Part shown: positions 737 through 58,127 of the stretch, one piece after another
How positions within the stretch are numbered: the first letter of the stretch is position 1
How the letters are laid out: each line of letters begins with the position of its first letter
Program-made: the position numbers and the translations under genes
Assembly (NCBI GenBank): GCA_041651535.1
Contig: JBAZIZ010000001.1
Span: forward strand, 96,368 to 160,367
Direction: 5' to 3'
Source: Patescibacteria group bacterium
GTDB taxonomy: Bacteria > Patescibacteriota > Patescibacteriia > Magasanikbacterales > UBA922
Length of the DNA stretch: 64,000 nt
Notes under the pieces: model-generated
Seen by the model: the letters and a program-made list of their open reading frames with translations, nothing else
Told to the model about the DNA's origin: nothing
Database searches by the model: none

Positions 737-765
737 TTGACTTACAAAAAACTATATGTTATACT
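737..765 (+). promoter_or_regulatory. sigma70-like promoter TTGACT-N17-(TG)TTATACT upstream of the tRNA fragment / GIY-YIG / intron-tRNA unit
   Basis: TTGACT at 737-742, 17-nt spacer, extended -10 TGTTATACT ending at 765; the same ATATGTTATAnT motif recurs at 56241-56252, 57531-57543 and ~57594-57603. Confidence 0.4.
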
Positions 766-815
766 GTTTTCGGTTTTGTGTTTTTTATTAAAATACAAAA
801 ATTACAATTTAATAT

Positions 816-883
816 TCGGCGGTAGCTCAGCGGTACCTGCCTGCCGGTTTACATACCGTTAGGTATGCAGGCAGGGAGCAACC
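816..883 (+). other. partial duplicate of tRNA-Asn 5' portion (positions 1-28) interrupted by a 40-nt hairpin element in the D-loop
   Basis: 816-835 identical to 1152-1171 (TCGGCGGTAGCTCAGCGGTA); 876-883 GAGCAACC matches 1172-1179 GAGCAACT; the 40 nt between them is absent from the intact gene. Confidence 0.6.
836..875 (+). repeat. 40-nt GC-rich nested-hairpin element (CCTGCCTGC-CGGTTTA-CATACC-GTTA-GGTATG-CAGGCAGG)
   Basis: perfect 9-bp outer stem and 6-bp inner stem; a second 40-nt copy with compensatory substitutions at 57989-58028; simpler relative at 47899-47918. Confidence 0.6.
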
Positions 884-892
884 AAATAAAAT

Positions 893-1078
893 ATGTATAA
901 AATATATATTATACAAAGTGAGAAAAATAATTTTTTATATGTAGGGCTAACATCGAATTTAGAAATTCGATTAAAATACCACAATCAAGGTAGAGTATTT
1001 TCAACAAAAGGTTATCGATCATGGAAATTAGTTTACACTGAAGAAGTTGAAACCAGACAAGAAGCAAGAAAAAGATAA
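893..1078 (+). CDS. small GIY-YIG nuclease-domain protein (COG2827/YhbQ-like), interrupted by an in-frame TAA; reading frame continues to 1144
   Basis: YIYIIQS...FLYVGLTSNLEIRLKYHNQG...WKLVYTEE is a GIY-YIG signature; after the TAA at 1076-1078 the same frame reads KYFKSGCGKEFIKNFLYKPAI, restoring the typical ~82-aa length. Confidence 0.6.
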   Translation: MYKIYIIQSEKNNFLYVGLTSNLEIRLKYHNQGRVFSTKGYRSWKLVYTEEVETRQEARKR

Positions 1079-1151
1079 AAATACTTTAAAAGTGGTTGTG
1101 GTAAGGAGTTTATTAAAAACTTTTTATACAAACCAGCAATTTAAAATTTAT

Positions 1152-1524
1152 TCGGCGGTAGCTCAGCGGTAGAGCAACTGGCTGTCGAAATGTGGCAGCT
1201 CTTGATAGAAATATCAGGATGAAAAACGAAGTGAATTGACAGGAAACCTTTTCTCGACTTAGTCGGGATGGTAATCTGCAGCCAAGTCTTAAATTATATC
1301 CCGTTGTAAAGGCGGAAAAATATTGTTTAAGAAAGGTTCAGAGACTATCTCATTTTGAGAGTAGTCTTCCGATATATTATCGGAAGCCGAAGCGCTTCGC
1401 ACCCGTAACGCTCTTGGAAATAAACCAGGTAAATGGCGTGGGTGATAAAATAGTCCAGTCTTTTTTGAAAAAAGAAGAAATAACTGTAACCAGTGGGTCG
1501 TGGGTTCGAGCCCCACTCGCCGAG
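1152..1524 (+). tRNA. tRNA-Asn(GUU) split by a 301-nt group I intron in the anticodon loop (exons 1152-1185 and 1487-1524; 73-nt mature tRNA, no encoded CCA)
   Basis: acceptor TCGGCGG/TCGCCGA pairs 7/7; D arm GCTC-AGCGGTA-GAGC; anticodon stem ACTGG/CCAGT; spliced loop CU-GUU-AA; T arm GTGGG-TTCGAGC-CCCAC; discriminator G. Confidence 0.7.
1186..1486 (+). ncRNA. group I self-splicing intron
   Basis: P1: exon GCUGU pairs intron GCAGC (1195-1199) with U.G at the splice site; P/Q/R/S-like elements AATTGACAGGAAA (1234-1246), AATCTGCAGCC (1273-1283), GGTTCAGAGACTAT (1335-1348), AAAATAGTCCAG (1448-1459) with the R/S GACTA/TAGTC P7 pairing; intron ends in G1486. Confidence 0.75.
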
Positions 1525-1561
1525 CAAAATAAAAAAACAGACTTTTCTCAAGCCTGTTTTT

Positions 1562-2977
1562 TTAAATTTTCACTTCAATATTATTTCCTAACTCACTTCT
1601 TTCTTTTATTAATTTAATTTCTCTTTTATATAAATAAAAAGAAACTACAAAGGCAATCACATCCGAGATAGCAAATGCATACCAAATACCGTCTAAATTA
1701 AACAAATAAGATAAAATAAATAAAAATGGAATTAAAACTAAAAATTGTTTGAAAATTGAAATGAAAAAAGCTACTCCAGCTCTTCCCATCGCTTGGTACA
1801 TACCACCACTGACAACTTGTAAACCAATAAAAGGAGCAGATAAAAATATTATTTTTAAAGCATGTTCCCCCATTTCTAATAAATCTTTTTCAGTGGTAAA
1901 AATTGCCACCATAAAACGAGAAAAAAATAAAAATATAAAAAAAGCAAATACCGACAAACAAGTTCCATAAAAAACACTCAGACGAATAGTTTTTAAAACT
2001 CTTTTAACATCACCAGCTCCATAATTAAATCCTACAATTGGTTGCATACCTTGGATTAAACCAAAAATCGGCATCATAACAAAAGATACTAATCTCTGGA
2101 CTATTCCATAGGTCGCAATTGCTAAATCGCCTCCATAAAAACCCAGTAATCTATTGATAATCACAACTACCAAACTAAAAGAAGATTGACGAGCAAAATC
2201 AGAAAGTCCAATACCAAAAATTTCTTTAACAATGTTTTTTTGTAATTTAAAATTTTTAATCTTAATTTTCAATAAACTTTTTCCTAAAAAATAAAAAGAA
2301 AATATATAAAAAAAAGAAAAAACATTTGATAAAACACTAGCCCAAGCTGCTCCAGCTACTGACCAATTATATTTTATAATAAAAATATAATCTAAAATAA
2401 TATTTATTATTGAACCTAAAATCATTGATAACATTGCCATTTTTGCTTCTCCTTCTGCTCTGACTAAACTACTCGCTGCCACGCCAAAAGAAAAAAATAT
2501 TAAACCACCAAAAATTATTTGTCCATATTTTATTGATAAAGGAAGTATTTCTTCACTAGCCCCAAAAATTTTCATGAGCGGTTCAATAAAAACAAGAAGT
2601 AAAATACTGATAATTATACTGGACAAAAAAACTAAAGACAAAACATTTCCTAAAACTGTTTCCGCTTCTTCTTTTTTTCTTTCGCCTAATTTTCTAGAAA
2701 TCAAAGATGCGCCTCCAACTCCAAAAACTTGAGAAAAAGCCATGATTATCATGTAAAGTGGAAAAATAATAGAAATAGCAGTAATCGCAGTCATACCTAC
2801 TCCTCGACCAACAAAAATTGTGTCTACAATATTATACAAAGCAATAACAAACATACCAACAATAGCTGGTACAGATAATTTTATTAATAATTTATTAATT
2901 GGTGCTTCAGCCAATAAATTTTCTCGTGATTGCATAATTATTTTTTTCTTTCTTGACCAGCACGAAGTTGTCCACAA
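1562..2977 (-). CDS. MATE family multidrug/oligosaccharide efflux transporter (true start may be the internal Met at ~2935)
   Basis: 12 predicted TM segments; N-terminal ...LAEAPINKLLIKLSVPAIVGMF..IVDTIFVGRGVG typical of MATE/NorM/DinF. Confidence 0.85.
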   Translation of the reverse strand: MWTTSCWSRKKKIIMQSRENLLAEAPINKLLIKLSVPAIVGMFVIALYNIVDTIFVGRGVGMTAITAISIIFPLYMIIMAFSQVFGVGGASLISRKLGERKKEEAETVLGNVLSLVFLSSIIISILLLVFIEPLMKIFGASEEILPLSIKYGQIIFGGLIFFSFGVAASSLVRAEGEAKMAMLSMILGSIINIILDYIFIIKYNWSVAGAAWASVLSNVFSFFYIFSFYFLGKSLLKIKIKNFKLQKNIVKEIFGIGLSDFARQSSFSLVVVIINRLLGFYGGDLAIATYGIVQRLVSFVMMPIFGLIQGMQPIVGFNYGAGDVKRVLKTIRLSVFYGTCLSVFAFFIFLFFSRFMVAIFTTEKDLLEMGEHALKIIFLSAPFIGLQVVSGGMYQAMGRAGVAFFISIFKQFLVLIPFLFILSYLFNLDGIWYAFAISDVIAFVVSFYLYKREIKLIKERSELGNNIEVKI

Positions 2978-22585: not shown

Positions 22586-22637
22586 AAAACCCCAGACCAG
22601 CCGGACCTTGCGGTCCTATATTTGTTTCCAAATATAA

Positions 22638-22682
22638 CTCGTTGAAAAGTCGCTGATCTTGGGGATCAGTATTTTCAACGAG
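22638..22682. other. nested palindrome CTCGTTGAAAA-[CTGATC ttgggg GATCAG]-TTTTCAACGAG; candidate att core or operator for the adjacent serine recombinase
   Basis: perfect 11-bp outer inverted repeat enclosing a 6-bp inner one; in the divergent intergenic region upstream of the recombinase; further small palindromes nearby (CTCATAAA..TTTATGAG, GACGCGTC). Confidence 0.3.
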
Positions 22683-22913
22683 GTTTCATACCATGCTCAT
22701 AAAAATTTATGAGTTTAGGTATCTGGTATTATCCAGTGTTAATTGTAATTACATTTTAACTTAAAAAAGCTAAAATGTCCAATTTAATAATAGCTTAGAT
22801 ATTGATTTTTGCGAAGTCTAGTTACCAACAGTTTACCTACTTCCCTACTGGACGACAGGAACGGGACGCGTCATTAATGTAAGTAATAAGATAATAATTT
22901 TTAATTTAATATC

Positions 22914-47898: not shown

Positions 47899-47918
47899 CC
47901 TGCCTACCGGCAGGCAGG
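47899..47918. terminator. GC-rich hairpin CCTGCCT-ACCGGC-AGGCAGG between convergent genes (bidirectional terminator); related to the outer stem of the 40-nt hairpin elements
   Basis: 7-bp GC stem extended by TTCAA/TTGAA, followed by TTTTT. Confidence 0.5.
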
Positions 47919-57390: not shown

Positions 57391-57700
57391 TGTGTCTGGT
57401 GTGGTTGGCTTAAATATTTAAAGAACGGAGAGTTCACAAAATGACAAGCCACCACAACCAAACATAACTTATAATGACACACTTCTCTTTTTTTGTCAAG
57501 AGCTTACAATTATATTTTATTTTAAAACTAAATATGTTATAATATATTCTGTTAATTTAATTAAAGAAAAACTTGACTTATTTATTATTTTGTTATATTA
57601 TATTAGCGTTATTATTTTAATAATTGACTGAAAGCTCAGTTGTAAACGTCTCGACGATACGTCGGAAAAGGTCCTGATTAATTATAAAAAATTTTAAAAT

Positions 57701-57773
57701 GGTCTGGTAGCTCAGTCGGTAGAGCAGCTGCCTTTTAAGCAGAAGGTCCTGGGTTCGAATCCCAGCCGGATCA
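57701..57773 (+). tRNA. tRNA-Lys(UUU)
   Basis: GGTCTGG-TA-GCTC-AGTCGGTA-GAGC-A-GCTGC-CTTTTAA-GCAGA-AGGTC-CTGGG-TTCGAAT-CCCAG-CCGGATC-A. Confidence 0.85.
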
Positions 57774-57781
57774 CAAGATAA

Positions 57782-57813
57782 AAATCACTTATTTAAAGTG
57801 ATTTTGTTTTTTT
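57782..57813 (+). terminator. AT-rich hairpin AAATCACTT / AAGTGATTT + T-run (tRNA-Lys terminator; repeated in each 115-bp unit)
   Basis: 9-bp stem followed by TTTTGTTTTTTT. Confidence 0.45.
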
Positions 57814-57988
57814 AATAAAGATTTTCAATTTAGAGCAGTCCCGACGATACGTCGGGAAAGGTCCTGGGTTCGAATCCCAGCCGGATCACAAGACAAAAAT
57901 CACTTATTTAAAGTGATTTTGTTTTTTTAATAAAGATTTTCAATTTAGAGCAGTCCCGACGATACGTCGGAAAAGGTCCTGTGGTTCG

Positions 57989-58028
57989 CCTGCCTGTCGG
58001 TTTATATGCCGTTAGGCATGTAGGCAGG
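57989..58028 (+). repeat. second 40-nt nested-hairpin element CCTGCCTG-TCGGTTTAT-ATGCC-GTTA-GGCAT-GTAGGCAGG
   Basis: same length and architecture as 836-875; inner stem changed CATACC/GGTATG to ATGCC/GGCAT (compensatory); inserted between TTCG and AATCC of the T-loop. Confidence 0.6.
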
Positions 58029-58127
58029 AATCCCAGCCGGATCACAAGACAAAAATCACTTATTTAAAGTGATTTTGTTTTTTTAAATAAAATTACAAAA
58101 ATAAAAAAATCGTTTTTAAACGATTTT

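What the first reader, a model, noticed from the sequence alone, without database searches (positions are those of the whole stretch)
816..1524. tRNA-Asn(GUU) interrupted by a 301-nt group I intron, preceded by a stop-interrupted GIY-YIG gene and a duplicated, insertion-bearing 5' tRNA fragment
The exons 1152-1185 and 1487-1524 assemble into a canonical 73-nt tRNA with anticodon loop CU-GUU-AA. The intervening 301 nt has group I hallmarks: a P1 pairing with U.G at the 5' splice site, P/Q/R/S-like elements with the GACTA/TAGTC P7 pairing, and a terminal G. Here the intron sits between anticodon positions 35 and 36. In the tRNA group I introns I know of (tRNA-Leu UAA, tRNA-fMet, tRNA-Ile, tRNA-Arg) it sits between positions 34/35 or 36/37. 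About 336 bp upstream the first 28 nt of the same tRNA are duplicated, with a 40-nt hairpin inserted in the D-loop. Between the duplicate and the real gene lies a COG2827-type GIY-YIG nuclease ORF whose frame reads through one in-frame TAA to reach the family-typical ~82 aa. A single promoter (737-765) would transcribe all of this. Free-standing GIY-YIG homing-type nucleases next to group I introns are a classic mobility arrangement.
Basis: partly seen in the sequence, partly recalled or inferred. Interest (0 to 1): 0.6.

Follow-up and report, generated by a model that had tools for sequence, protein, structure and literature searches.

The report
Split tRNA-Asn plus tRNA-invading nuclease cassette
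A Patescibacteria tRNA-Asn gene is split by a self-splicing group I intron of an already published kind; the broken nuclease gene and hairpin-marked tRNA stump upstream belong to a widespread small selfish element that invades the front half of tRNA genes, which I could not find described.

Summary
Exons 1152-1185 and 1487-1524 join into tRNA-Asn(GUU). The 301-nt insert scores 78.8 bits on Rfam RF00028. The GIY-YIG ORF carries a genuine TAA, and a hairpin-interrupted copy of the tRNA 5' part lies upstream.

The headline is not new. Group I introns at position 35/36 of tRNA-Asn in Patescibacteria are published, with in vitro splicing (Nakagawa 2026; Williams 2020). My own scan found at least 109 more.

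The same Slx1/UPF0213-like 80-aa GIY-YIG ORF sits in the same way in front of intronless tRNA-Asn, Phe, Lys, Arg, Thr and Leu genes.

In 80 metagenomic loci the layout is the same:
- the native promoter;
- the original tRNA nt 1-21;
- a near-invariant 20-nt palindrome, CCTGCCTGCCGGCAGGCAGG, exactly at D-loop 21/22;
- tRNA nt 22 to about 27-42;
- the ORF, which usually stops at the real tRNA's U8-A9-G10;
- the intact tRNA.

Filled and empty sites, tandem and ORF-less remnants, mirror-image 3'-side versions and the window's fresh pseudogene all point to a selfish element. The palindrome also occurs alone in tRNA and hairpin loops and in phage contigs. I found no description of this cassette. Its mechanism is inferred only.

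The parts
737..765 (+). Sigma-70-type promoter, TTGACT (737-742), 17-nt spacer, TATACT (760-765), with TG before the -10 hexamer. This is the native tRNA promoter and now drives the whole unit.
   Evidence: 10 of 12 consensus matches. By analogy with the L021/L050 filled/empty comparison, the hairpin-bearing copy sits behind the native promoter.
813..835 (+). Displaced original 5' part of tRNA-Asn: TAT plus tRNA nt 1-20 (standard positions 1-21). It is direct-repeat copy 1.
   Evidence: Exact 23-nt repeat with 1149-1171.
836..875 (+). GC-rich palindromic hairpin inserted at D-loop position 21/22. It is the family palindrome CCTGCCTGCCGG/CAGGCAGG with a 20-nt secondary hairpin nested in its centre.
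   Evidence: The same palindrome sits at the same tRNA position in 73 of 80 related loci.
876..882 (+). GAGCAAC, the continuation of the displaced tRNA copy (standard positions 22-28). Homology to the real tRNA ends here. GGGAG at 873-877 is a possible ribosome-binding site.
   Evidence: alignment.
893..1144 (+). Slx1/UPF0213-type GIY-YIG nuclease ORF, 83 codons. It is a pseudogene: TAA at 1076-1078 replaces the conserved catalytic Glu62, and T1019 gives P43S.
   Evidence: AF2 model pLDDT 93; nearest folds are UPF0213 BH0048 and the Slx1 nuclease domain.
1149..1171 (+). Direct-repeat copy 2: TAT plus nt 1-20 of the functional tRNA.
1152..1185 (+). tRNA-Asn(GUU) 5' exon, standard positions 1-35, ending in U35.
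1186..1486 (+). Group I intron, 301 nt, with no ORF. The internal guide GCAGCU lies at 1195-1200, P7 at 1343-1347/1451-1455, a P7.1/P7.2-like insert at 1348-1390, and the terminal G at 1486.
   Evidence: RF00028, 78.8 bits. About 79% identical to parts of the introns in Magasanikbacteria loci L039 and L046, which have identical exons.
1487..1524 (+). tRNA-Asn(GUU) 3' exon, positions 36-73, with discriminator G.
1530..1564 (.). Hairpin flanked by A and T runs, a bidirectional intrinsic terminator. It ends the tRNA unit and the convergent MATE gene.
   Evidence: sequence.

Best explanation
Window 737-1564 is one transcription unit made of two unrelated genetic elements attached to one tRNA-Asn(GUU) gene of a Patescibacteria bacterium.

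(A) The intron. The tRNA is interrupted between U35 and U36 by an ORF-less group I intron with IA-like architecture. It belongs to the published Patescibacteria 35/36 class. After transcription it should remove itself by the usual two guanosine-initiated transesterifications. The 5' splice site is set by the U35.G wobble in P1 and the 3' splice site follows the terminal G1486. The product is a normal tRNA-Asn.

(B) The cassette. The first 330 nt of the unit are a decaying copy of a miniature selfish cassette that targets the 5' half of tRNA genes whether or not they carry an intron.
- The cassette placed a minimal Slx1/UPF0213-like GIY-YIG nuclease gene, plus a fresh copy of about -12 to +28 of the tRNA, in front of the rest of the gene. 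The tRNA therefore stays intact.
- The original 5' part stays behind the native promoter as a stump, and a conserved GC-rich palindrome sits exactly at D-loop position 21/22 of that stump.
- In this strain the nuclease has just been inactivated by GAA>TAA at the catalytic Glu.

What is shown: the architecture and its recurrence in more than 80 loci, filled and empty sites, independence from the intron, degenerate and tandem forms, and Slx1-like fold.

What is inferred:
- The nuclease nicks or cuts cassette-free tRNA genes, probably by recognising DNA structure rather than a long sequence.
- The element is copied in by recombination, using the tRNA itself as homology on both sides.
- The palindrome is a required cis element. 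It could be the nuclease's recognition site, or an interruption that stops re-cleavage or repeat-mediated deletion.
- The exact role of the palindrome is unknown.
For: Intron:
- RF00028 scores 78.8 bits against a gathering score of 50, with U.G in P1 and a P7 pairing.
- The spliced product is a canonical tRNA-Asn. Its anticodon arm, AACTGGCTGTTAACCAGT, is identical to intronless tRNA-Asn genes of relatives such as L181.
- 109 of 120 further genomic loci rebuild as tRNA-Asn split at 35/36.
- Homologues self-splice precisely at 35/36 in vitro (PMC13011429).

Cassette:
- 283 tblastn-confirmed relatives exist in metagenomes. All 80 loci that were fetched carry the ORF directly 5' of a tRNA on the same strand. 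73 of the 80 have the palindrome within 160 nt upstream of the ORF, and it lies between tRNA nt 21 and 22 in the copies inspected.
- Hosts are intronless Asn (26 unique ORFs), Asn with intron (14), Arg-CCU (11), Phe (7), Lys (3), Leu (3), Arg-ACG (2) and Thr (1). Intron-bearing and intronless hosts interleave in the ORF tree.
- In 38 non-redundant cassettes, the 21 nt before the palindrome are identical to the real tRNA in 24. The copy then runs a further 0-20 nt (median 11). The stop codon is the tRNA's own U8-A9-G10 in 23.
- Filled versus empty site: L021 compared with L050 and L116 shares the promoter and leader, and the hairpin copy is in the native position.
- Degeneration is seen as ORF-less remnants and tandem arrays (L133, L144, L159, L167, L124). 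The window itself has TAA plus P43S where 99.5%-identical strains have an intact allele.
- Mirror-image 3'-side cassettes occur in L091, L007 and L019.
- The AF2 model (pLDDT 93) is closest to UPF0213 and to the Slx1 nuclease domain (TM 0.65-0.69), ahead of I-TevI at 0.53.
- The palindrome is nearly invariant while the ORFs are only 46-73% identical.
- It also occurs alone in hairpin or tRNA loops (window 47899 and 57989; L139; L199). It is found in 47 phage-like contigs, against 1 and 0 for two control palindromes.
Against: - No experiment is available for this locus. Splicing and nuclease activity are both inferred.
- ARAGORN with introns allowed prefers tRNA-Thr(UGU) with the boundary at 33/34.
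- The functional tRNA downstream of the cassette is itself an intact potential target. A simple 'insertion destroys the homing site' logic therefore does not explain immunity.
- The duplicated segment varies in length, roughly -3 to -12 at one end and +27 to +42 at the other. This fits neither a fixed target-site duplication nor simple homing.
- Most phage contigs that carry the palindrome have no such GIY-YIG gene nearby. The nuclease-palindrome link is therefore only correlative.
- The ORF tree is a rough neighbour-joining tree of 80-aa proteins.
- The literature search covers only the held library.
Confidence: 0.78

Rival explanations
1. The free-standing GIY-YIG nuclease cuts intronless tRNA-Asn alleles at or near the intron insertion site, and the intron and nuclease gene spread together.
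For: The nuclease gene and the intron are adjacent on one transcript. 7 of 110 intron-bearing tRNA-Asn loci have such an ORF directly upstream. In L056 and L019 the displaced copy runs exactly to GGCTG(T), the 5' splice site, before the ORF starts.
Against: - The same cassette sits at intronless tRNA-Asn (26 unique ORFs) and at Phe, Lys, Arg, Thr and Leu genes.
- In the unbiased metagenome set, 7 of about 43 Asn hosts carry the intron. That is about the 16% background reported for Patescibacteria genomes.
- Intron-bearing and intronless hosts interleave in the ORF tree.
- Homing genes inside this intron class are HNH (L077).
- The protein has no DNA-binding domain. It scores 20 bits against a 56-bit cut-off for the intron-endonuclease family TIGR01453.
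Confidence: 0.06
2. Host function. The small GIY-YIG protein is a cellular tRNA or DNA processing or repair factor co-transcribed with tRNAs, and the hairpin-bearing tRNA-like leader is a regulatory or decoy RNA for it.
For: - The ORF is co-transcribed and tightly overlaps the tRNA 5' end.
- The palindrome is conserved at the nucleotide level.
- The two 40-nt versions in the window differ by one compensatory pair and two G.U-type changes on the sense strand.
- A natural fusion of an Slx1-like GIY-YIG domain to TrmH, the D-loop Gm18 methylase, is on record (PMC1564403).
Against: - Presence is patchy between close relatives.
- Fresh pseudogenes occur.
- There are ORF-less remnants and tandem arrays.
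- Many isotypes are involved, with several switches between them.
- Only one copy, and a dead one, lies in this 64-kb window.
Confidence: 0.12
3. Artefact or trivial local duplication. The upstream fragment and hairpin are an assembly error or a one-off tandem duplication, and the TAA is a sequencing error or a recoded codon.
For: The source is a metagenome assembly, and palindromes can arise from chimeric reads.
Against: - The same structure appears in three independent assemblies: SRR8542065, SRR13208907 and GCA_030154545.1.
- The architecture recurs in more than 80 loci from many projects.
- The TAA is reproduced in a second assembly, while sister strains have GAA.
- Other long ORFs in the window are intact under the standard code.
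Confidence: 0.02
4. The gene is tRNA-Thr(UGU) with the intron at 33/34, as ARAGORN calls it, and not tRNA-Asn.
For: ARAGORN -i gives tRNA-Thr(tgt) with a 301-nt intron at position 33.
Against: - That intron would end in C1484 instead of G.
- The Rfam alignment puts the conserved splice-site U at U1185, paired to G1195.
- The discriminator is G, and the anticodon arm equals that of intronless tRNA-Asn genes of relatives.
- The same two-base miscall is documented, and was resolved by sequencing spliced products, in PMC13011429.
Confidence: 0.03

Closest known systems
[quoted passage not shown]
   Same: Same host tRNA, same insertion site, same phylum. Mostly ORF-less introns of 200-350 nt with an IA-like extra P7.1/P7.2 region. 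The same ARAGORN/tFind miscall as tRNA-Thr(UGU).
   Different: Nothing essential. This is one more member. The papers do not mention flanking GIY-YIG genes or duplicated 5' fragments.
Free-standing GIY-YIG homing endonuclease genes, e.g. phage T4 SegB in the tRNA gene cluster (PMC2330249), and intron/free-standing-HEG 'collaborative homing' in phages (own knowledge: Zeng, Bonocora and Shub 2009)
   Same: A GIY-YIG nuclease gene outside any intron, next to or within tRNA genes. Presence/absence polymorphism and cycles of invasion and decay.
   Different: - The protein is 80 aa, a nuclease domain only, of the Slx1/UPF0213 lineage and not I-TevI/Seg-like. It has no DNA-binding domain.
- The insertion rebuilds the target by duplicating its 5' part.
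- A conserved palindrome marks the displaced copy.
- There is no dependence on an intron.
Slx1 and bacterial UPF0213/COG2827 (YhbQ-type) stand-alone GIY-YIG proteins (PDB 1ZG2, 1YWL, 4XM5, 7CQ3; PMC1564403)
   Same: The best sequence and fold matches. Conserved Tyr, Tyr, Arg, His and Glu residues. A minimal domain.
   Different: Slx1 is a cellular structure-specific nuclease that works with Slx4. The bacterial UPF0213 proteins have no assigned role. Here the gene behaves as part of a mobile cassette tied to tRNA genes.
Mobile mitochondrial GIY-YIG ORFs that carry a replacement piece of the invaded gene, e.g. Allomyces atp6 (own knowledge: Paquin, Laforest and Lang 1994), and mitochondrial GC-cluster or double-hairpin palindromes
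   Same: The invading ORF brings or creates a duplicate of the target's end, so the gene stays functional and a displaced fragment remains. GC-rich palindromes populate AT-rich genomes.
   Different: Those cases involve organellar protein genes and duplication of the 3' end. No invariant palindrome sits at a fixed structural position there.
REP elements with their RAYT transposases, and other bacterial palindromic MITE-like repeats (own knowledge)
   Same: A short conserved palindrome is scattered in a genome, sometimes nested, possibly paired with a dedicated small nuclease.
   Different: RAYTs are HUH/Y1 enzymes, not GIY-YIG. REPs are intergenic and are not placed in tRNA loops. The link between this palindrome and the nuclease is unproven.
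GIY-YIG ORFs in non-intron insertions within CPR rRNA genes (PMC11270868)
   Same: Same phylum. GIY-YIG ORFs in insertions that are not introns, located at stem-loops of a structured-RNA gene.
   Different: The host is rRNA, and the insertion stays inside the gene. No partial duplication and no palindrome are reported there.

Membership tests
Group I intron (Rfam RF00028) | Covariance-model score at or above the curated gathering score over the catalytic core (P3-P9) | tested here: met
   78.8 bits against 50, E = 3.6e-20, model positions 1-253 of 253. The hit was missed by the filtered whole-window scan.
Group I intron (Rfam RF00028) | 5' splice site after a U that forms a U.G wobble in P1 with the internal guide sequence; the intron ends in G | tested here: met
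   U1185.G1195, with exon GGCUGU pairing to GCAGCU at 1195-1200; G1486 is the last intron base. GCAGC(C/U) lies within 90 nt of the intron start in 67 of 110 homologues. The terminal G in the homologues was imposed by my search pattern.
Group I intron (Rfam RF00028) | Self-splicing with guanosine | not testable with these tools
   Shown in vitro for two members of the same 35/36 class, including a terminal-G-to-C control (PMC13011429). Not tested for this sequence.
Patescibacteria tRNA-Asn 35/36 intron class | Host is tRNA-Asn(GUU), insertion lies between nt 35 and 36, and the spliced product is canonical | tested here: met
   The joined exons are called tRNA-Asn(gtt). The exons are identical to those of Magasanikbacteria loci L039 and L046, which carry homologous introns. 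The window protein is annotated 'Patescibacteria group bacterium'.
Patescibacteria tRNA-Asn 35/36 intron class | Subgroup IA architecture | tested here: inconclusive
   A 43-nt insert with two hairpins between P7 and P3' (1348-1390) fits P7.1/P7.2 of IA introns. No subgroup models were available to test this.
GIY-YIG nuclease superfamily, Slx1/UPF0213 (COG2827) branch | Pfam PF01541 above cut-off and the alpha/beta GIY-YIG fold | tested here: met
   62.8 bits against 22.6. AF2 pLDDT is 93. Top fold hits are UPF0213 BH0048 and the Slx1 nuclease domain (TM 0.65-0.69), ahead of I-TevI at 0.53. phmmer hits to 1YWL and 1ZG2.
GIY-YIG nuclease superfamily, Slx1/UPF0213 (COG2827) branch | Intact catalytic residues (Tyr5, Tyr16, Arg26, His30, Glu62) | tested here: not met
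   In the window Glu62 is replaced by TAA at 1076-1078, so the copy is a pseudogene. The residues are invariant in 27 relatives, and the sister allele P0001 is intact.
Intron-associated homing endonuclease (I-TevI-like, TIGR01453; collaborative homing) | Family score, a DNA-binding domain, and consistent association with the intron or its insertion site | tested here: not met
   TIGR01453 scores 20.1 bits against a cut-off of 56; the protein is 83 aa against a 215-position profile. The cassette is found at intronless Asn and at five other isotypes.
Selfish homing-type element (generic) | Presence/absence at the same site in related genomes, with degenerate and ORF-less derivatives | tested here: met
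   L021 is filled while L050 and L116 are empty. L008 is filled while L063 is empty downstream of the same upstream gene. Remnants and tandem arrays exist. The window copy is a pseudogene.
Selfish homing-type element (generic) | The nuclease cleaves the empty target site | not testable with these tools
   No biochemical data are available. This step is inferred.
tRNA-targeting integrative elements (integrase plus att duplication) | A tyrosine or serine integrase and duplication of the tRNA 3' end as attL/attR | tested here: not met
   No integrase is present. The element is about 300 nt, and the duplicated part is the 5' end.

The most novel reading that the evidence does not exclude
The region upstream of the tRNA is a member of an undescribed class of miniature selfish elements.
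- A minimal Slx1-like GIY-YIG nuclease of about 80 aa invades tRNA genes of many isotypes, from the 5' side and, in mirror image, from the 3' side.
- It keeps the tRNA alive by partial duplication.
- It is functionally coupled to a near-invariant 20-nt palindrome, CCTGCCTGCCGGCAGGCAGG, which lands at structure-defined loop positions: D-loop 21/22, T-loop, variable loop, terminator loops and its own centre.
- The palindrome is itself mobile across phyla and phages.

If true, target choice would be by DNA or RNA shape rather than by a long sequence. It would also give the orphan UPF0213/COG2827 family its first biological role.
Probability: 0.35. Interest if true: 0.8.

Novelty: new variant of a known kind. 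Interest (0 to 1): 0.55.

Why it matters
The intron itself adds nothing new. It does confirm that standard pipelines still miss or mislabel this essential tRNA: the Rfam gathering scan was silent and ARAGORN called Ser or Thr. That affects completeness estimates for Patescibacteria genomes.

The cassette is the valuable part.
- It shows that the intron and the neighbouring nuclease gene are two independent parasites of one tRNA gene.
- It gives a testable biological context for the stand-alone bacterial Slx1-like GIY-YIG proteins (UPF0213/COG2827). These have had solved structures since 2005 but no known function.
- It points to a short, exactly conserved palindrome that sits at structure-defined positions in tRNA genes and also turns up in unrelated phage contigs.
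- If the nuclease recognises DNA shape and the palindrome is its partner, this would be a new way for a selfish element to pick targets, and a compact system that can be reconstituted in vitro.

Tried and rejected
- The whole-window Rfam gathering scan found no intron. Only the local E-value scan did.
- ARAGORN without introns gave a false tRNA-Ser. With introns allowed it gave tRNA-Thr at 33/34. I rejected this on the terminal-G rule, the P1 alignment, tRNA identity and the published experiments.
- I tried to test P1 covariation across 110 homologues. The test was uninformative because my search pattern fixed exon nt 30-31 as GG.
- I looked for a nuclease or other shared gene next to the palindrome in 47 phage-like contigs. 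None was found.
- I checked whether deleting the palindrome in silico restores tRNAs in phage contigs. Only L234 (tRNA-Met) did.
- Flank analysis of solitary palindromes gave only a modest excess of short direct repeats (11 of 56 against 6 of 235) and no excess of inverted flanks. This is not enough to define a target-site duplication.
- There was no synteny between the window and the closest cassette-free relatives L039 and L046, so no empty site exists for this exact locus.
The narrower alignment A3 worked.
- PHROGs gave no hit for the protein.
- Six literature searches found neither the cassette nor the palindrome sequence. Absence from the held library is not proof of novelty.
- I considered TAA recoding and sequencing error and rejected both.
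Full report
**1. What is in the sequence**

The window is 27% G+C. Its GIY-YIG fragment is annotated in public records as coming from a 'Patescibacteria group bacterium', on a 206,592-bp contig.

Exons 1152-1185 and 1487-1524 join to TCGGCGGTAGCTCAGCGGTAGAGCAACTGGCTGT|TAACCAGTGGGTCGTGGGTTCGAGCCCCACTCGCCGAG. ARAGORN folds this as tRNA-Asn(GUU).

The 301 nt between the exons match Rfam RF00028 end to end at 78.8 bits (gathering score 50), E = 3.6e-20.
- The conserved splice-site U aligns to U1185, which pairs with G1195.
- GACUA 1343-1347 and UAGUC 1451-1455 form P7.
- Two extra hairpins between P7 and P3' fit subgroup IA.
- G1486 is the last intron base.

Routine detection failed. The whole-window gathering scan returned no intron. 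ARAGORN returned a false tRNA-Ser. With introns allowed it returned tRNA-Thr(UGU) with the boundary two bases early.

**2. The intron is already known**

Nakagawa et al. (mSystems 2026, PMC13011429) describe exactly this case.
- They report group I introns at 35/36 of tRNA-Asn(GUU), in 15 genes across 95 complete Patescibacteria genomes, and of tRNA-Asp.
- These are missed or miscalled as tRNA-Thr(UGU) at 33/34 by ARAGORN and tFind.
- They are classified IA.
- They self-splice precisely at 35/36 in vitro, with a terminal-G-to-C control.
- The few intron-encoded homing genes are HNH.

Williams (bioRxiv 2020) had already listed the type as Asn.4Ug.

I scanned one genome per GTDB species with the P7 3' strand plus the 3' exon as pattern. 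Of these, 109 rebuild as tRNA-Asn split at 35/36 by introns of 190-710 nt. They come from Patescibacteria, Omnitrophota, Nitrospira, cyanobacteria and MAGs labelled delta- and gammaproteobacteria.

Two Magasanikbacteria loci (L039, L046) have exons identical to the window and homologous introns of 400-407 nt. One relative (L077) carries an HNH ORF inside the intron.

**3. The nuclease gene**

ORF 893-1078 continues in frame to 1144. The 83-aa read-through product is a GIY-YIG domain (PF01541, 62.8 bits).

The TAA at 1076-1078 replaces the invariant Glu62 of the family. It is not a sequencing error. A second assembly, SRR8542065, is 100% identical over 3490 nt.

Two assemblies of a 99.4-99.5% identical strain (SRR13208907 and GCA_030154545.1) share the same architecture. 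Within 700-1600 they differ from the window at only two positions common to both assemblies, both inside the ORF:
- 1076, T against G (TAA against GAA);
- 1019, T against C (Ser43 against the conserved Pro).

One of the two, L123, also has a T for C at 831 in the displaced copy, near its contig end. Both encode an intact 83-aa protein, P0001. The window copy is therefore a very recent pseudogene.

An AlphaFold model (pLDDT 93) is closest to UPF0213 BH0048 and to the nuclease domain of Slx1 (TM 0.65-0.69). I-TevI (0.53) and UvrC (0.48) are more distant. The intron-endonuclease family TIGR01453 is far below its cut-off.

This is a minimal nuclease of the Slx1 type, a family of structure-specific enzymes, with no DNA-binding domain.

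**4. The nuclease is tied to the tRNA 5' half, not to the intron**

Seven of the 110 intron-bearing tRNA-Asn loci (the 109 plus the window) have such an ORF immediately upstream.

Searching metagenomes with close relatives of the protein gave 283 confirmed loci. In the 80 that were fetched, the layout is essentially constant whatever the tRNA:
- tRNA nt 1-21;
- the palindrome CCTGCCTGCCGG(C/T)AGGCAGG, exactly between nt 21 and 22;
- tRNA nt 22 onwards;
- a short spacer;
- the ORF;
- the complete tRNA.

The palindrome is present in 73 of the 80 loci. The others carry different hairpins, a nested version, or a contig end.

Counting unique ORFs, and including the seven loci from the intron-selected genome scan, the hosts are intronless tRNA-Asn (26), tRNA-Asn with the 35/36 intron (14), Arg-CCU (11), Phe (7), Lys (3), Leu (3), Arg-ACG (2) and Thr (1).

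In the unbiased metagenome set, 7 of about 43 Asn hosts carry the intron. That is about the 16% background of the phylum.

In a neighbour-joining tree, intron-bearing and intronless hosts interleave, and Phe hosts appear in at least four places.

In 38 non-redundant cassettes:
- the 21 nt before the palindrome are identical to the real tRNA in 24, with a mean of 94%;
- the copy continues 0-20 nt after the palindrome (median 11);
- the ORF's stop codon is the tRNA's own U8-A9-G10 in 23.

**5. Direction of the event and signs of selfish behaviour**

L021 carries the cassette. L050 and L116 do not, and they are 93% and 90% identical to L021 across tRNA and intron. All three share the promoter and leader up to ...acaatttaatat|TCCCGGGTAGCGC.

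In L021 the hairpin-bearing copy occupies this native position. The block 'spacer-ORF-aatttaatacat-tRNA nt 1-26' lies between it and the rest of the gene. The 'duplicate' is therefore the original 5' part, and the working tRNA uses the new copy.

L008 (filled) and L063 (empty) lie downstream of the same conserved upstream gene.

Degenerate forms are common.
- ORF-less stumps lie between an intact cassette and the tRNA in L133, L144, L159 and L167.
- L124 holds an array of three stumps in front of an intron-bearing tRNA-Asn. It is the closest metagenomic relative of the window ORF.

Mirror-image cassettes exist on the 3' side: tRNA, then ORF, then a hairpin-interrupted copy of the 3' end with the native terminator (L091, L007, L019). 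ORF-less 3' duplicates also occur (L004, L083, L094, L035).

This is the invasion, decay and loss pattern expected of a homing-type selfish element.

**6. The palindrome**

The window version (836-875) is the family palindrome with a 20-nt secondary hairpin nested in its centre.

A second copy of this 40-nt version lies at 57989-58028, in the T-loop of a partial tRNA-Lys copy. The two differ at five positions. One is a compensatory A-T to G-C pair and two are G.U-type changes on the + strand.

A plain 20-nt copy at 47899-47918 sits in the loop of an intergenic stem between convergent genes.

Across 1.2 Mb of fetched loci there are 95 hits with at most two mismatches. All lie in loci that carry this cassette clade, and none lies in the other 111 or so intron-scan loci. 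About ten are solitary, several of them in T-loop-like contexts (L139, L199).

Nested copies inside the palindrome's own centre occur in L202, L163, L178 and L138.

The palindrome is nearly invariant while the ORFs are only 46-73% identical. It is therefore either under sequence-specific constraint or repeatedly re-inserted.

In IMG/VR it occurs in 47 stretches, mostly 55-70% G+C contigs without the ORF. Two control palindromes of the same composition gave 1 and 0 hits. In one contig (L234) it forms a long variable arm in an otherwise complete tRNA-Met. No shared neighbouring gene was found.

Other ORF clades use different GC-rich hairpins at similar places (L021, L056, L019, L113).

**7. Most likely mechanism and its weak points**

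Shown: the architecture, its recurrence, its independence from the intron, polymorphism and decay.

Inferred: the Slx1-like nuclease nicks or cuts cassette-free tRNA genes, probably by recognising a DNA structure, since the common denominator of all hosts is a structural position rather than a sequence. The element is then copied in by recombination, with the tRNA itself as homology on both sides. The displaced stump supplies a portable left arm.

The palindrome could be any of three things:
- the nuclease's recognition site;
- an interruption that prevents re-cleavage, or prevents deletion between the direct repeats;
- an independent loop-seeking palindromic element that survives only in non-functional tRNA copies.

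Unsolved points:
- The intact tRNA downstream remains a potential target.
- The duplicated segment varies in length.
- Phage contigs carry the palindrome without the ORF.

One side inference follows from the layout. RNase P cleavage at tRNA +1 would remove the stop codon of most cassette ORFs. In the window, however, the stop (1142-1144) lies 7 nt upstream of the tRNA.

**8. Literature and verdict**

I found no paper in the held library that describes this cassette or the palindrome.

Related notes exist. GIY-YIG ORFs occur in non-intron insertions at stem-loops of CPR rRNA genes (PMC11270868). T4 SegB lies in a tRNA cluster (PMC2330249). An Slx1-like domain is found fused to the D-loop methylase TrmH (PMC1564403).

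Verdict:
- The intron is an ordinary new member of a known, experimentally validated class.
- The proposed intron-nuclease partnership is not supported.
- The upstream half of the finding belongs to a widespread and apparently undescribed tRNA-invading GIY-YIG/palindrome cassette, whose mechanism remains to be tested.

Noticed in passing
window 57630-58100 (tRNA-Lys 57701-57773): tRNA-Lys(UUU) is followed by two tandem partial copies of about 115-117 nt (TRF: 57743-57988, period 115, 2.1 copies, 97% matches). Each consists of TAGAGCAG, then the hairpin TCCCGACGATACGTCGGGA in place of the anticodon arm, then the variable loop, T-arm, acceptor 3' strand and terminator. A further degenerate copy with the same hairpin lies upstream (about 57630-57690). 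There is no ORF between them. They look like ORF-less remnants of a 3'-side cassette.
   Followed up: partly
window 57989-58028: A second copy of the 40-nt nested palindrome (CCTGCCTGTCGGTTTATATGCCGTTAGGCATGTAGGCAGG) is inserted in the T-loop (GGTTCG|..|AATCC) of the last partial tRNA-Lys copy. It has five differences from 836-875, including one compensatory pair.
   Followed up: partly
window 47899-47918: A solitary 20-nt palindrome, CCTGCCTACCGGCAGGCAGG, sits in the loop of an intergenic stem (TTCAAtt..gTTGAA) between convergent genes, far from any tRNA or GIY-YIG gene.
   Followed up: partly
IMG/VR loci L204-L250: The exact palindrome occurs in 47 stretches of phage-like contigs, mostly 55-70% G+C, against 1 and 0 for two control palindromes. 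Several contigs carry 3-6 copies (e.g. IMGVR_UViG_3300037242_000417). Short direct-repeat flanks are enriched (11 of 56 against 6 of 235). Only L245 has the canonical tRNA/GIY-YIG cassette.
   Followed up: partly
L234:2239-2330 (also L206:8616): In a 64-68% G+C phage-like contig the palindrome forms a long variable arm in an otherwise complete tRNA-Met(CAT). ARAGORN calls the tRNA with or without it.
   Followed up: partly
L091, L007, L019 (downstream of tRNA-Asn); L195 intron: Mirror-image 3'-side cassettes: tRNA, then GIY-YIG ORF, then a hairpin-interrupted copy of the tRNA 3' end. A second hairpin family, (A)CCCTGAGCGAAGTCGAAGGG(T), appears in L007 and inside the P1/P2 region of the L195 intron. 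L091 carries a similar but not identical GC-rich hairpin at the same place.
   Followed up: partly
L124:2850-3980: This is the closest metagenomic relative of the window ORF (71% aa). It has an array of one ORF-bearing and two ORF-less stump units, each with about 90 nt of duplicated leader, in front of an intron-split tRNA-Asn. ARAGORN -i again calls that tRNA as tRNA-Thr(tgt).
   Followed up: partly
L004, L006, L063, L083, L068: Intron-split tRNA-Asn genes occur on contigs labelled Pacearchaeota, Woesearchaeota or Methanosarcinales. L004, L006 and L083 have an archaeal-looking GUC...GAC acceptor stem. This is either mis-binning, as Williams 2020 suspected, or group I introns in DPANN tRNA genes.
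   Followed up: no
L077 intron (630 nt): The tRNA-Asn 35/36 intron here carries an HNH-type ORF (…CQICGYDKCNEALDFHH…CANCHREIH…). This matches the published statement that homing genes in this intron class are HNH.
   Followed up: no
window 22603-22721 (- strand): A LOOT RNA (RF03000) matches at 92.8 bits, well above the gathering score of 46.4.
   Followed up: no
window 1176-1477: The Rfam gathering-threshold scan of the whole 64-kb window did not report the group I intron, although it scores 78.8 bits in a local scan. The speed filters lose it in this AT-rich context.
   Followed up: yes
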